From the NCBI GenBank assembly GCA_043228905.1, contig JBHGNT010000003.1, positions 18,910,001 to 18,974,000 on the forward strand: 64,000 bases of DNA. Reading direction: 5' to 3'. Positions 57,656 to 63,600 of the stretch are shown here, in pieces. Source of the DNA: Azolla caroliniana (taxonomy: Eukaryota; Plantae; Polypodiophyta). The notes under the pieces are model-generated. The model had not been told where the DNA came from and made no database searches. It worked only from the letters and a program-made list of their open reading frames with translations. Every line of letters begins with the position of its first letter. Within the stretch, counting starts at the first letter, position 1. Position numbers and translations under genes: made by a program.

Positions 57656-60600
57656 ATGGGGTTCTCCTCACTATGCATCCAGTCTCGAATCCTCTTCTTA
57701 TCTTCTTCTTCTTCTTCTTCTTCCTACTCTCTTCTTCGTTCCCCTGTTCCCAGGTATGTTTCTATCTCAGCAGACTCTCTCCTTACTCCGTGTTTCCATG
57801 GCCCTGTCTTTCTTCCCCATTAGTTTTTTTTTTCTCTTTCTTCTTTTCAGATATATTAGCTACCTCTGTTTTCTGTTTTCTCTTCTCTCTTCTCTTCATG
57901 TTTGTTCTCTCTTTTGTTGACATTTACTTAGTAGTGTGTATAAAAGAATATGCTACAGAAACAACAGCAAGGTTTCTGCATTACATACAACGGAAATGTT
58001 GAAATGTCACAACAAACAAATTAGCATCTGCAAAATGAGACAAACTTGGGACTTGATTTTGTATACTGTGGATAGGATGAAATCTGATACGAGAGGAAAG
58101 TCTCCGAATGTCAGCTCAAATCCAACCATATGTGAATACTAGAAGGTTTTTTTTCCCCATGAACAATAGTTTTGTCATCTGAACAATGCCTTCTTGATGA
58201 TATGAAGGTCTAATCAATATCTAGATCGTGTTTTGAACAACTTCTCCTTGATGACATCAAGATGTTGATGCTTTTCTTGATTGTCTCATGGATTATTTGA
58301 ACAACTTTCTCTCAATGATCGCAACAGGTAGTAAAATTTCTTGATTGAACAAGTTCATCTGGATAGTATCAAGGGGTACTAAAAAAGCTCTTTGTTGATA
58401 GAGAAAACAATGTTTTTTAGAGGAATCCTTGAAATTTAATCAAGGGCTGTAAATCCATGAAATTTAAGTTTAATGATAATGGAACTAATCAATCCACCAA
58501 TGTGGTCAGAATTATTGAATGAGATACCCCAAACATGTTAAACAATGGAGTTCCTCTGGTATGAGTAAACCATTAACCATATCTTAGTGCCGGAGATAAT
58601 TAGGGCACATATACTCTCATTATCTTCGTAATCAATCATATAATTTGGAATCAACGCTATGGTCTGGAAATACACTGAGGTTAAATTCTTAAGGCCTTCA
58701 ACATGGTGTTTACAATTCATACCCATGTCAAGCATTCACACCTACGACAAGCTCTTCAAGTGTGTCATCAATTGTTGAAGCACAAAACAAAACTAGACTC
58801 ATATGACTTTGTTTCTATTCTAAAAGCTTTCACTTTTGCTGAATCGCTCTTCCATGGAAGACTCATTCATGGGCATTTAATTATGTCACATGGCTTGGAT
58901 CAAAACTTGTACGTGGGAAATGCTCTCATTCACATGTACATGAAATGTGGTGCGGTCATGGATGCATTTTATATGTTTCATGATATGTCATCAAGAGATA
59001 TAGTCACATGGAACTCTATGCTTTTTGGATATGTTAATCTGAACAAGTCTGAAATGGCCCTTTGTCTATGGAAAAAGATGCATCAGGATAGGGGCTTGAA
59101 TCCAGACAAATATACTTTTGTTTGCATGCTAAAAGCTTGCTCTACCCTCGGATATATTATGCCAGGTAAGCTTGTTCATTGCCTTATTGTTGAATATGAA
59201 CTTGAATGTGATGTATATGTTAGAAGCTCTCTTGTTGATATGTACGCATCTTGTGGAAACATCCATGATGCTCAAAACACATTCATTTTTTCTTCGGAAA
59301 AAATATTAGTCATGTGGAATGCACTCATTTCAGGATATTCTTGGAATGCAAATGGTGATAAGGTCATTGAGTACTTCTTGAAAATGCAATGTGAAGGTCA
59401 CATTCCAACTCAAGTCACATTTGTTTACACACTGCGGGCATGTTCACACATTCTGGACATTCAGCTCGGGATGCAAGTTCACACTTATATAATTGAGTTG
59501 AACCATGATTTGAATGTGTTTATAGAGAGCGCCCTTATTGACATGTATGCTCAATCTTGGTGTTTGGATGAATCATTGCATGTTTTTAGTTCATCAGTAA
59601 AACAAGATAATGTAACATGGGGTGCGTTGATTTCCGGCTTTGTTCGATGTGGCCAACATGATGAAGCTATATGTCGTTATAGGAATATGAAAGACATGGG
59701 CTTCAAGATCACCGAAACAATCTATGTTTGTGTTGTGAAAGCATGTTCCAATCTAAGGGCTATAGAGCATGGTAAAATGATCCATATAGAAATCATTGCA
59801 GGGGAACTTCAATCCGTAGTATATGTTGCTAATACCCTCATCGACTTGTATGCGAGTTGTGGTTATCTTAAAGAAGCCCAAATGATTTTTGATGATATTT
59901 CCGAGCGAGACATAGTGAGTTGGAACTCGTTGCTTGCAGGATATGCATGCCATTGTCATGATGATGAAATTTTTGAGCTTTTTTACCGTATGCAGAAAGA
60001 GGGGATAGACCCTGATGCTGTCACGATTATATGCATGATTAAGGCATGTACAAAAATGATGGCTTTGGATAAGGGCAAGTATATCCATAGATATTTGAAG
60101 ATAAAAGAGGGATTATATGACTCAAACGCGGTGAGAAATGCACTTATCGGCATGTATAACAAATGTGGATCTCTTAGCCATGCAGAAAAGATCTTCAATA
60201 TCATGCCAGCAAAGGATGCTGTAACTTGGAGCACAATGATGGCTGGTTTTCTTGAACACGGGCAAGCCAAAGAAGCCATCTCTCTCTTCTTAAAAATGCT
60301 TCAAGAAGGCACACATCCTAACCAAGGGGTACTTGTAACTGTACTTAAAGCATGTTCTGATGAGACTTATCTTCACTTTGGCAAACTAGTTCATGCTCTC
60401 ATTCTCGATAGTATATTTGACAATGACACTGTTGTTAGCAATACACTTATTCACATGTATGCCTTTTGTGGCAAGCTTGAGGATGCTTGTATGGTCTTTC
60501 AAACAATGCCAGATCAAAATCAAGTAACGTGGACATCGATAATTTCAGGTTTTTGCCATAGTAATGACGTAAAGTCTGTAGCACAATATTTTTTGGGCAT

Positions 60601-63600
60601 GAAAAGAGGAGGCTTTAAGCCCAATGATGTGACTTTTGTTTGTCTTCTATCAGCATATAGCCATGACGGATTCTTAGAGGAAGCATGTGATCTCTTTAGC
60701 TCGATGATGGAAGATCCAAATGTTTATCTGACAGTCGAACATTATAATTGTGTTGTTGACATTTTAGGAAGAGAAAATATGCTTGATCAAGCAAAGGAAC
60801 TACTCATCAGCATGCCTTTCCATCTCAACCTTGTAGGATGGAAGTCTTTGCTCAGACATTGCAAAACATTTGGTAATGTGGAGCTTGGAAGAGAATGTTT
60901 CGATAGCATAATTGCTTTAGATGTCGGGAACTCATTTGCCTATGCTCTTATGGTCGACATCTACATAGATGCAGGAATGTGGGAAGATGTTAACCAATTG
61001 CAAATGAAACAAAGTGAGAGAGAGCTCCAGAAATTTACCCCTAATGATTAGGTAAGAGAGAAATTAAGAAAGTATTGAAGTCATTACTCATAACACGGGA
61101 GATGAGGAGATCGGTATATTTTAAGGTACACAGGAGACTGGTATGGTCTATGGGATGGGGCTGAGCCCCTGGTGATGATGGAGAGGGAAGTGCACCCATT
61201 ATGATGAAGTAATGAAGTTAGTAGTACATGAAGATTCAAACAAGCAGGAAAGGAAAATAGAAACTCTTATTTCTCTCTAAGAAAAATAACTAAGTTGCGG
61301 ATATTGTCTTTGGTACCTTGTAGACGTTTTGAAAGGAAATGATGTACCCATTGTTAAGGAATTCCCATAAGACGCTTAGGTGGCAACAGCCGATTTGGGT
61401 GCTTAAAAGACCGGAGGAGCGTCCAAGCTTAAAATGAGAACATACCCTACTAAATTGGCTTTCGTTCCCGATGAACTTCTGAAAGGAAAATGACATATGG
61501 GTTCACAAGTATTGGAAGAATATGTAGATCATGATACGGAGGTGGTAGCAAAGCGTTGGATGGGTCCCTTATGAATCCCTTGTAACAGTGGAAATTTACT
61601 GAAACTTTCCTTTTATGCAACAAATTGGGCATTTCCTAACTAATGATGCATATTTATTCTCTTTCCAACTCTGGCAAATGCAAGGGTTCCTAGAAACACG
61701 ATGCATTCTCTTTTGTACTTCAGGAGAATGTTTTGAGTCCTAGAAATGCTACATTGGTATCCTAGAAATGCTTGAATTCCTTCCAAACATGATGAATGCT
61801 CACAAAGTGACATCTCATCCTTCCAATCACAATGGTAATCATCTCGTCAAAAATACGTCATCTAATATTTGTTATGCTTCACAGCATTCACTTGTCAGGC
61901 TAATGTTTACATATTTGATTTCATGTATCTAAGAAAAAGGTTTCATTCTCTTTTGAATGACTCTCAATTGAATTTGATGATCATTCAGATCCACATTTGT
62001 GCCTATATGCAAGTGGATCTCCAAAGCTGGAACAATATCTTCTAACAAACTATTTACTCCTTACTCTCCAATGAAGAGGTAAGACTGAGTATTTGTCATG
62101 GACACTTTGTGTAATTATTTTTTCCTTGTTCTGTATGAATCTTTCCATTGCTTTTTGACATATATGTTGAATCTGAGTTGCTTTTTTTTTATCTATTCTT
62201 TTCAACAGAGCCTTTTCATGTGTAAGGGCAGAGAGAAACGAAGAAGATGCTGCTGTCGCTGCTGCATCTTTAGCTGATTCAGGTGCCCCAACAATGTGAG
62301 TCTTCCTAATACAAAGCTTTACATATAGATTATGTCTTTGATTCATTGTTAGCATTGCCAAAGGAAGTCTATGATATTGTTGTCAACCCTAGGGATTCTG
62401 AGAATAGTGAATTTGCAAAGCAATATTTTTGAGAAAAAACTAGTGGTGTATGCACACTAGGATATCAAAAAAATTTGAAAGATGAATTTTCGTTTATGCC
62501 ATAGTGTGTCTTAATTCGTAATGGATATGCTAGTATTGAATAAACAACATCAAGGTTATAAATCACATACTTTATCACTTAGCCTAAGGTTATTTTTTCT
62601 ATAAATTTTGCAATTAACATGCATCCCCAACCCATTATGGTTGGAACCCAAGGTATGACTTTCCACTAAACCTGACATAATTTTTATACAAATAATACGT
62701 TTAGTTTTCCAAATATAAAGGCAATGCTTTGCAGATTCGATAAGATCATCAAGAAAGAGATCCCATCAACTGTTGTTTATGAAGATGATAAGGTTCTTGC
62801 ATTCCGTGATATCAACCCACAAGCACCTATTCATATTATACTGATTCCAAAGATTCGAGATGGGTTGACACAGCTTTCGAAGGTTTTCATCTCTTCTTTG
62901 GGCAACTCTTCTTAAGATTTTCATCTCCTTTTGTGCAAAATATCTACTGAATGTGATTGATTAATTGATTCTTTTATGCATCAGGCTGAACCCAAACACA
63001 AAGATATTTTGGGCCATTTGATGTATGCCACTGCTCTTATTGCTAAGCAAGAAGGTCTAGATGATGGTTATAGGCTGGTAATCAATGATGGGCCCAAGGG
63101 ATGTAAGTAGCCAATCCTTAAAATTAATGTTTTTCAACCTACTTGCATTAGAAATTCGTTAATCTTTGATACGAGTATAATTGAACTATGTTTTCGTTTT
63201 ATTTGGAAATTAATAGATTTTTACCTTAGTTTATAATTGAAATGAAAATATATAGAAATTTATTCTTATATTCAGATGTGTATATTCTGAGCAATTGGTA
63301 TTGGAAGTTAGCTTGAAAATCCATAGAAACTCATTTCTACAGTGTTTTTGTATTTGGATTGATTCCCACTTGGAACCAAATAGATTCCTGATGTTAGACT
63401 TAGGTATATGAGAAGTGTATAGGAACTCGTTCCTATTCTGTGTTTTTTTTTGTATTAATTCCTATTTAAGAATTAGTAGATTTTAGTATCACCACAGTAT
63501 TCCACATGGTCTGTTATTTGTATTGATTTACCCTGAATAATGCAGGTCAATCGGTATATCATCTCCATTTGCATATACTTGGTGGAAGACAGTTGAAATG

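What the first reader, a model, noticed from the sequence alone, without database searches (positions are those of the whole stretch)
57656..62078. Complete PPR gene nested, same strand, in HINT2 intron 1, with a splice donor at its stop codon
Seen: the Ser-rich exon 57656-57753 (AG|GTATG) joins in frame to 61989 and on through HINT2, so the 782-aa PPR ORF lies inside a 4.2-kb first intron. The PPR stop is itself the exon side of a consensus donor (TAG|GTAAGA, 61051/61052). The ORF begins directly in repeat-like sequence with no evident transit peptide, and has an in-frame TAA 21 nt upstream. Known: PLS-E PPRs are organellar RNA-editing specificity factors and need targeting. Inference: a retroposed PPR may work as a giant cassette exon of the host. 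It would use the HINT2 promoter, possibly its targeting exon, and could give a dicistronic PPR+HINT transcript. This would be a route to switch on new editing factors inside organellar housekeeping genes.
Basis: partly seen in the sequence, partly recalled or inferred. Interest (0 to 1): 0.85.

Follow-up and report, generated by a model that had tools for sequence, protein, structure and literature searches.

The report
Fern editing gene inside host intron
An intact fern gene for a PPR protein, likely an organelle RNA-editing guide, sits inside the first intron of a housekeeping gene and shows up in unspliced RNA that likely starts at the host's promoter; the splice signal at its stop codon is missing in a close relative and is likely incidental, so this is a nested gene of a known kind.

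Summary
The nesting is real. In spliced contigs from four studies, exon 57656-57753 joins 61989, so the 782-aa PLS-E PPR ORF (58703-61051) lies in HINT's 4,235-nt intron 1. The ORF is under constraint (4.9% vs 8.2% divergence, no gaps) and appears in unspliced contigs of three studies.

The giant-cassette reading is not supported. No 61051-61989 joint was listed. Two contigs run unspliced across the donor position. One relative lacks the 20 nt holding stop and donor, and another ends in a different frame. No usable in-frame acceptor exists for the host's transit exon. Ceratopteris and Adiantum relatives have the same short N-terminus and repeat array but lie apart from HINT, so the factor is old and has likely moved.

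Best reading (0.5): a minor unspliced RNA from the host promoter, by intron retention or by an overlooked proximal acceptor at 57850, carries the PPR. An own intronic promoter is the main rival (0.33). The RNA's 5' end was not resolved. Closest known: embedded dicistronic-like loci of Populus and intronic 'hitchhiking' retrogenes. Three look-ups of this scan's earlier notes showed nothing similar.

The parts
57656..57753 (+). HINT (HINT2-type) coding exon 1, Ser-rich, first half of a predicted plastid transit peptide
   Evidence: joined to 61989 in contigs of X1, X2, X4, X6; N-terminus resembles those of fern HINT homologues by eye
57754..61988 (+). HINT intron 1, 4,235 nt, host of the PPR gene
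57825..57852 (+). Candidate proximal acceptor at 57850 (23 of 23 pyrimidines, CAG|AT), 97 nt from the exon 1 donor; use not shown
   Evidence: only 2 of 2,782 YAG sites in the window have such a tract
57846..57852 (+). Left copy of a 7-nt direct repeat shared with the real acceptor; possible target-site duplication (inconclusive)
57939..57946 (+). TATA-like word, the only one in 57000-58703; candidate intronic promoter (untested)
57973..58702 (+). Upstream region present in unspliced RNA contigs; holds 25 ATGs (14 expected from base shuffles)
   Evidence: X2 record 57973-62007, X6 piece 58450-58640
58703..61051 (+). Intronless PLS-E PPR ORF, 782 aa: short leader, L-S-P array of 19 detected motifs, E motif, no DYW
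61037..61056 (+). 20-nt segment holding the PPR stop, the consensus donor 61052 and an overlapping ATG (61044) in HINT frame; absent in organism B
   Evidence: table 4 (X2, X3)
61052..61988 (+). Intron remainder after the PPR stop, present in unspliced contigs (likely 3' UTR)
   Evidence: X1 pieces 61067-61278 and 61655-61887, X2 record to 62007; X5 60854-61426, X6 60904-61460
61984..61990 (+). Real acceptor of HINT exon 2 (61988) and right copy of the 7-nt repeat
61989..63613 (+). HINT exons 2-6 (61989-62078, 62209-62295, 62735-62882, 62985-63102, 63546-63613)
   Evidence: GT..AG joints in X1, X2, X4; translation; homologues

Best explanation
An intact, intronless PLS-E PPR gene lies inside intron 1 of a fern HINT gene; the spliced HINT RNA skips it, and unspliced RNA across it likely comes from the host promoter and likely serves as the PPR message, with the donor at its stop likely incidental. 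Shown: the nesting; the host splice; unspliced contigs over the ORF and both flanks; constraint on the ORF; loss or shift of the stop and donor in relatives. Inferred: the PPR-bearing RNA is a minor host isoform made by keeping intron 1, or by splicing exon 1 to the proximal acceptor at 57850. It runs through the stop towards exon 2 and ends in the intron or at the HINT 3' end. The protein starts at its own ATG, is imported by its own short basic leader, binds an organellar RNA, and recruits a DYW deaminase in trans as other PPR-E proteins do. The gene is old in ferns and likely moved into or out of this intron in one lineage.
For: Host splice over the PPR in 4 studies. One 4,056-nt X2 contig covers 57973-62007 unspliced, and X1, X5, X6 have shorter pieces over the ORF and the downstream intron. 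Spliced contigs of the same runs join across the other HINT introns and across the five introns of the neighbouring gene, so these runs hold spliced RNA. ORF pieces differ from the window at 131 of 2,682 letters with 0 gaps in 10 pieces; non-coding pieces differ at 132 of 1,613 with gaps in 5 of 6 pieces (Fisher p = 2e-5; listed pieces only). 8 of 13 changed codons in the table are silent. X5 and X6 cross 61051/52 unspliced with more than 31 letters on each side. X2 and X3 lack the 20 nt. P0003 ends in the window's other frame. The host ATG is only 317 nt upstream of the contig start, and the strongest pyrimidine tract of 89 YAG sites in the intron lies 97 nt from the donor. Arabidopsis PLS-E proteins without predicted targeting still reach organelles (PMC3858439, table passages). 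PPR-E proteins get a deaminase in trans (PMC11897456, passages).
Against: The 5' end is unresolved: contigs cannot show starts, and no join of exon 1 to the PPR-bearing RNA was seen. A host-started RNA puts 31 ATGs ahead of the PPR ATG, and the upstream 730 nt have more ATGs than shuffles, not fewer (25 vs 14 +/- 3.3), which argues against a scanned leader. A long 3' UTR with downstream introns would be a target of nonsense-mediated decay (PMC1693880, abstract). The X2 contig enters exon 2 by only 19 nt, below the tool's 31-letter bridging rule. A TATA-like word sits 34 nt before that contig's start. TAG followed by GTRAG is rare in the window (2 of 1,647). Whether organism D (X5, X6) keeps the GT is not shown.
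Confidence: 0.5

Rival explanations
1. Ordinary independent nested gene: the PPR has its own promoter inside intron 1 (near the TATA-like word at 57939, or close to the ATG) and its own poly(A) site a few hundred bases after the stop. HINT is only the landlord.
For: The only TATA-like word in 57000-58703 is at 57939, and the X2 contig starts at 57973 with no loose end. Only 1 ATG lies in the last 123 nt before the PPR ATG. X5 and X6 contigs (one study) stop at 61426 and 61460. The Pteridaceae relatives exist apart from HINT.
Against: A contig of X3, which the tool marks as probably DNA, ends within a base of the same place (from_end column), so the start may be an assembly break. A start at 57973 still leaves 25 upstream ATGs. 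X1 and X2 contigs continue to 61887 and 62007.
Confidence: 0.33
2. The RNA over the intron is only slowly spliced HINT pre-mRNA; the PPR is rarely or never translated from it and may be expressed in another tissue or be starting to decay.
For: Many upstream ATGs; a variable C-terminal end in close relatives (782 aa here, 813 aa if the 20 nt are absent, another frame in P0003); an X2 piece also lies in intron 3.
Against: The ORF is about half as divergent as its flanks and gap-free in 10 of 10 listed pieces. It keeps the motif array of its Pteridaceae relatives. The end variation lies after the E motif hit.
Confidence: 0.1
3. One reading: a giant cassette exon (57851 or later to 61051) is spliced between HINT exons 1 and 2 using the donor at the stop, giving a dicistronic PPR+HINT RNA. 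An ATG overlapping the stop would start a 172-aa HINT.
For: A perfect donor at the stop (2 of 1,647 TAGs), a very strong candidate acceptor at 57850, and an ATG at 61044 in HINT frame. Contigs drop rare variants. No X1 or X4 contig across the donor was listed, so it is untested in the window-like haplotype.
Against: No such joint among the 7 rows (table complete) or the 15 rows shown (1 row hidden). Window-like X1 pieces (0-1 differences) lie in the part that would be spliced out. X5 and X6 read through. Stop, donor and ATG are all lost in organism B. An in-frame ATG within two codons occurs at 9% of positions by chance. An equally good donor at 59166 is crossed unspliced by the X2 contig.
Confidence: 0.07

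Closest known systems
Embedded dicistronic-like loci of Populus (bioRxiv 10.1101/2025.07.17.665350; passages and section 5 read)
   Same: A gene nested in a host gene (in 3' UTRs, introns or 5' UTRs) with RNAs that cover both. 114 of 214 transcribed embedded loci were classed so. PPR genes occur among the multi-gene loci, and organelle-targeted genes are enriched.
   Different: Those rest on direct long reads spanning both genes; here only short-read contigs exist and a single RNA over both ORFs is not shown. Fern rather than angiosperm.
Intronic retrocopies that hitchhike on a host promoter (review PMC5408686; passages read)
   Same: An intronless gene near the 5' end of a host gene may use the host promoter and 5' UTR. 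About 20% of 84,483 animal retrocopies lie in introns.
   Different: The examples are mostly animal. Here retroposition is not shown (no poly(A) remnant seen, no parent gene, repeat inconclusive), and no spliced chimeric RNA was found.
PLS-E class PPR editing factors such as MEF21, SLO2, CRR4, AHG11 (PMC3858439 table passages; PMC11897456 passages)
   Same: P-L-S repeats, an E motif and no DYW; several lack a predicted targeting signal yet are in organelles; the deaminase is supplied in trans.
   Different: Target RNA, organelle and editing activity of this protein are untested.
Ceratopteris richardii KP509_36G021900 and Adiantum nelumboides L7F22_011642 / L7F22_004384
   Same: 44-47% identity, 768-769 aa, the same 19-motif L-S-P order, 22-29-aa leaders, one clade (SH-aLRT 99, quick tree).
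   Different: By locus tag and contig length they lie on other chromosomes or contigs than the HINT found in those species (KP509_33G011100; L7F22_012502). A second HINT paralogue beside them was not excluded, and their own surroundings could not be read.

Membership tests
PLS-E PPR protein | Array of P, L and S motifs in triplets | tested here: met
   Pfam PPR hits; home-built motif HMMs give LSP x6 + L
PLS-E PPR protein | C-terminal E motif | tested here: met
   PF20431 at 724-771, 29.1 bits vs cut-off 27.3
PLS-E PPR protein | No DYW domain in cis | tested here: met
   No DYW family hit; tblastn of 240 proteins, DYW-bearing ones among them, finds no PPR or DYW remnant in either intron flank
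PLS-E PPR protein | Organelle import and site-specific editing | not testable with these tools
   Only leader composition was computed
HINT (HIT family), HINT2-type | HIT domain with HxHxH motif | tested here: met
   HLHLH; homologues carry PF01230 at up to 96% identity over exon 4
HINT (HIT family), HINT2-type | N-terminal targeting-like extension and orthology to HINT2 | tested here: inconclusive
   70 aa with 22 S/T and no D/E; groups with fern HINTs that mostly have long leaders (72 of 121 rows used). No named HINT2 of Arabidopsis was in the tree, so the label HINT2 is recalled.
Same-strand intronic nested gene | Whole ORF inside an intron that the host RNA splices out | tested here: met
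Cassette exon | Inclusion junctions at both ends | tested here: inconclusive
   None listed, but contigs drop rare variants and one row was hidden
Cassette exon | Donor kept in close relatives | tested here: not met
   20 nt absent in X2 and X3; stop in another frame in P0003
Retrogene | Target-site duplication | tested here: inconclusive
   7-nt repeat at both acceptors, 5 letters of which an acceptor tends to have anyway
Retrogene | Poly(A) remnant at the 3' end of the insert | tested here: not met
   None seen by eye before 61984
Retrogene | Intron-containing parent gene elsewhere | not testable with these tools
   No genome is held
Embedded dicistronic-like locus | One RNA molecule spanning both ORFs | tested here: inconclusive
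   The X2 contig enters exon 2 by 19 nt only, and a contig is not a molecule
Embedded dicistronic-like locus | Both proteins made from that RNA | not testable with these tools
   Needs ribosome profiling or reporters

The most novel reading that the evidence does not exclude
The PPR landed exactly on the intron 1/exon 2 border and duplicated the acceptor (7-nt repeat at 57846 and 61984). HINT exon 1 now chooses between the old strong acceptor 97 nt away, which yields a PPR message ending in HINT exons 2-6, and the new distal one, which yields HINT. One alternative 3' splice choice, damped by upstream ORFs and nonsense-mediated decay, would meter an editing factor from a housekeeping promoter. 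If common among the roughly 2,000 PPR genes of hyper-editing ferns, this is a general way for relocated PPRs to gain expression without a promoter.
Probability: 0.17. Interest if true: 0.62.

Novelty: new member of a known kind. Interest (0 to 1): 0.3.

Why it matters
Ferns carry very large PPR families (over 2,000 in Azolla and over 1,700 in Salvinia; PMC6786969, passages), and how relocated intronless copies get expressed is little studied. This locus is a clean test case: a constrained PPR nested in a transcribed housekeeping gene in at least three related organisms, but unlinked in Pteridaceae. It also warns annotators, because such genes hide in host introns.

Tried and rejected
Whole-genome count of intronic PPRs: no genome is held, so it was not run.

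Runs: none of the 7 listed is on record as RNA. X1, X2, X4, X5 and X6 are treated as RNA because they hold GT..AG-joined contigs. X3 is marked probably DNA and was used only for sequence differences.

Genomic DNA as the source of the intron contigs was considered and rejected: depth was 0 over 54610-57015 in 4 of 4 runs, and 0, 0, 0.53 and 0.51 in the bin inside the neighbour's 811-nt intron. Missing cover is weak evidence, and relatives may diverge there. There was no cover at 57702-57935, so acceptor 57850 could not be tested. X1 had none at about 60866-61066 (worked out from bin depths) and X4 held only the spliced contig, so the donor could not be tested in the window-like haplotype. Contig depths (11.7 vs 179 in X2) are not used as expression levels.

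TATA-based start: weakened because the DNA-like X3 contig ends at the same place.

Fusion of exon 1 to the PPR: no good phase-2 acceptor, and no HINT-like stretch in 348 PPR homologues. Fused forms outside 430-1,369 aa were not covered.

More orthologues: searches added none. P0377 scores close in the C-terminal part but has a different array.

Other searches: Rfam found 0 hits in 55000-64000. No terminal inverted repeats or long direct repeats bracket the block. The careful tree did not finish, so the quick tree is reported.

Literature: searches listed no report of PPR genes nested in fern introns; subscription papers such as O'Toole 2008 and Gutmann 2020 were not read, and no supplements were opened. 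Earlier findings: nothing relevant among those shown (0, 8 of 22, and 8).
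Full report
Observation. The window is fern DNA: the best named matches of both proteins are mostly from Adiantum and Ceratopteris. Six exons give a 202-aa HIT protein with a Ser/Thr-rich, acid-free N-terminal 70 residues. The 782-aa ORF at 58703-61051 is a PLS-E PPR with an L-S-P array and an E motif but no DYW.

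The nesting is real. Six public runs were laid on the locus, all as assembled contigs. In X1, X2, X4 and X6, from four studies, the spliced HINT contig continues before 61986 with the last letters of exon 57656-57753 (30 of 30 identical in X4). The same contigs join the later introns at GT..AG.

The PPR is transcribed and constrained. X2 holds one unspliced 4,056-nt contig from 57973 to 62007. X1, X5 and X6 hold shorter pieces in the ORF and both flanks. These runs also hold contigs that join across the other HINT introns and the five introns of the neighbouring gene. Listed ORF pieces differ from the window at 4.9% of letters with no gaps in 10 of 10 pieces; listed non-coding pieces differ at 8.2% with gaps in 5 of 6. 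The tables were cut, so these are the longest pieces only, and pieces that span the stop were left out of both sets. Of 13 changed codons listed, 8 are silent.

The donor at the stop is probably incidental. Four results go against it. (1) Organism B lacks the 20 nt at 61037 that hold the stop, the donor and an overlapping ATG, in both X2 and X3; its ORF would run to 813 aa. (2) P0003, 93% identical over the C-terminal 274 residues, ends in the window's next reading frame, so its stop lies elsewhere. (3) X5 and X6 contigs cross 61051/52 unspliced; whether that organism keeps the GT is not shown. (4) X1 pieces with 0-1 differences from the window lie in the 937 nt that the cassette model would remove. 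No 61051-61989 joint was listed (table complete; one search had one hidden row). An equally good donor at 59166 is also read through. The limit is that contigs drop rare forms and no window-like contig across the donor was listed.

The host targeting exon is not needed. Exon 1 is phase 2, and the only matching AGs in the first 100 codons are two AAG sites at residues 54 and 99. Exon 1 encodes only 32 of the roughly 70 extension residues. The closest Pteridaceae proteins begin 22-29 residues before the first motif, like the 31 here, and 20 of 45 named fern homologues have leaders of 40 or fewer (some may be truncated gene models). The PPR's own leader has 5 K/R, no acids and an amphipathic helix, though a degenerate PPR helix would look similar. 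Arabidopsis PLS-E factors with no predicted targeting, such as MEF21, SLO2 and CRR4, are in organelles (PMC3858439, table passages).

The factor is old, and its place differs between fern lineages. The window protein, P0003 and three Pteridaceae proteins form one clade (SH-aLRT 99, quick tree of 61 of 107 rows) with the same 19-motif order. In Ceratopteris the PPR carries a chromosome 36 locus tag and HINT a chromosome 33 tag; in A. nelumboides they are on contigs of different length. The nested place is shared with organism B (one contig from the PPR into exon 2) and probably with D. The direction and means of the move are not known, and a second HINT paralogue in Pteridaceae was not excluded (120 of 1,107 hits seen).

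How it likely works. What is missing is the 5' end. First, an acceptor-like site at 57850, 97 nt from the exon 1 donor, has 23 of 23 pyrimidines; only 2 of 2,782 YAG sites in the window do, and the real acceptor ranks 27th of 89 in the intron. It shares a 7-nt word with the real acceptor, which may be a target-site duplication. By my rough estimate chance gives this a few percent of the time, and the other such tract lies in a CT-rich stretch at the neighbour's 5' end, so such tracts can arise from simple repeats. Second, a TATA-like word at 57939 lies 34 nt before the X2 contig start, but the DNA-like X3 contig ends at the same place. I favour the host promoter (0.5) because it is close and active and a natural acceptor is at hand. 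An own promoter is the rival (0.33). Both face 25 or more upstream ATGs, so the translated form may be a shorter or differently spliced RNA not seen in contigs. A message that runs on into spliced HINT exons would be open to nonsense-mediated decay (PMC1693880, abstract). The protein likely guides organellar editing with a DYW partner in trans (PMC11897456, passages); this is inferred from family, not tested.

Comparison and novelty. Genes embedded in host introns and covered by shared RNAs are described in Populus, where PPR genes occur among multi-gene loci (bioRxiv 10.1101/2025.07.17.665350, passages and section 5). Hitchhiking intronic retrocopies are described mainly in animals (PMC5408686, passages). 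With about 2,000 PPR genes in the two water-fern genomes described in PMC6786969 (passages), some intronic landings are expected (inference). My searches listed no fern case, but the library lacks most subscription papers. Verdict: a real nested gene, new member of a known kind, interest 0.3. The alternative-acceptor switch (probability 0.17) would deserve about 0.6.

Noticed in passing
window 51019-54198 (- strand): A six-exon gene that looks like a plastid pyruvate dehydrogenase E2 subunit (label recalled from the translation, not searched) lies head to head with HINT, about 3.4 kb away; its five introns are joined in contigs of 4 of 4 runs.
   Followed up: partly
window 57350-57376: Three to four plant telomere-type repeat units about 300 nt upstream of the HINT ATG, like the telo-box of housekeeping promoters (recalled; seen).
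   Followed up: no
window 58180-58384: Three to four degenerate 28-40-nt repeats at 48-64-nt spacing in the region upstream of the PPR (D2 and D4); no PPR or HINT homology; origin unknown.
   Followed up: partly
P0003: This unnamed ENA protein matches the window PPR at 93% over its last 274 residues but much less over the first 490, so it is either an assembly chimera or a natural repeat-array swap.
   Followed up: partly
run X1 on window 53597-54054 and 60053-60464: X1 holds two haplotypes, one window-like and one sharing many letters with organism B: a hybrid, polyploid or mixed sample.
   Followed up: no
window 61044-61051: An ATG overlaps the PPR stop and would start a 172-aa HINT if 61051 were spliced to 61989; in the frame used by P0003 it would form a stop-start overlap. 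Chance level is about 9%, and the site is absent in organism B.
   Followed up: partly
window 62361-62564: X2 has a 216-nt contig inside HINT intron 3, so some intron retention or pre-mRNA occurs elsewhere in the gene.
   Followed up: no
window 13141-17478, 18144-22526, 30148-31122, 32554-36489, 45377-46165: LTR retrotransposon-like reading frames, two of them long and open (1,460 and 1,311 aa, copia-like by eye), and broken gypsy-like pieces; a lipase-like exon lies at 5529-6401 (labels recalled).
   Followed up: no
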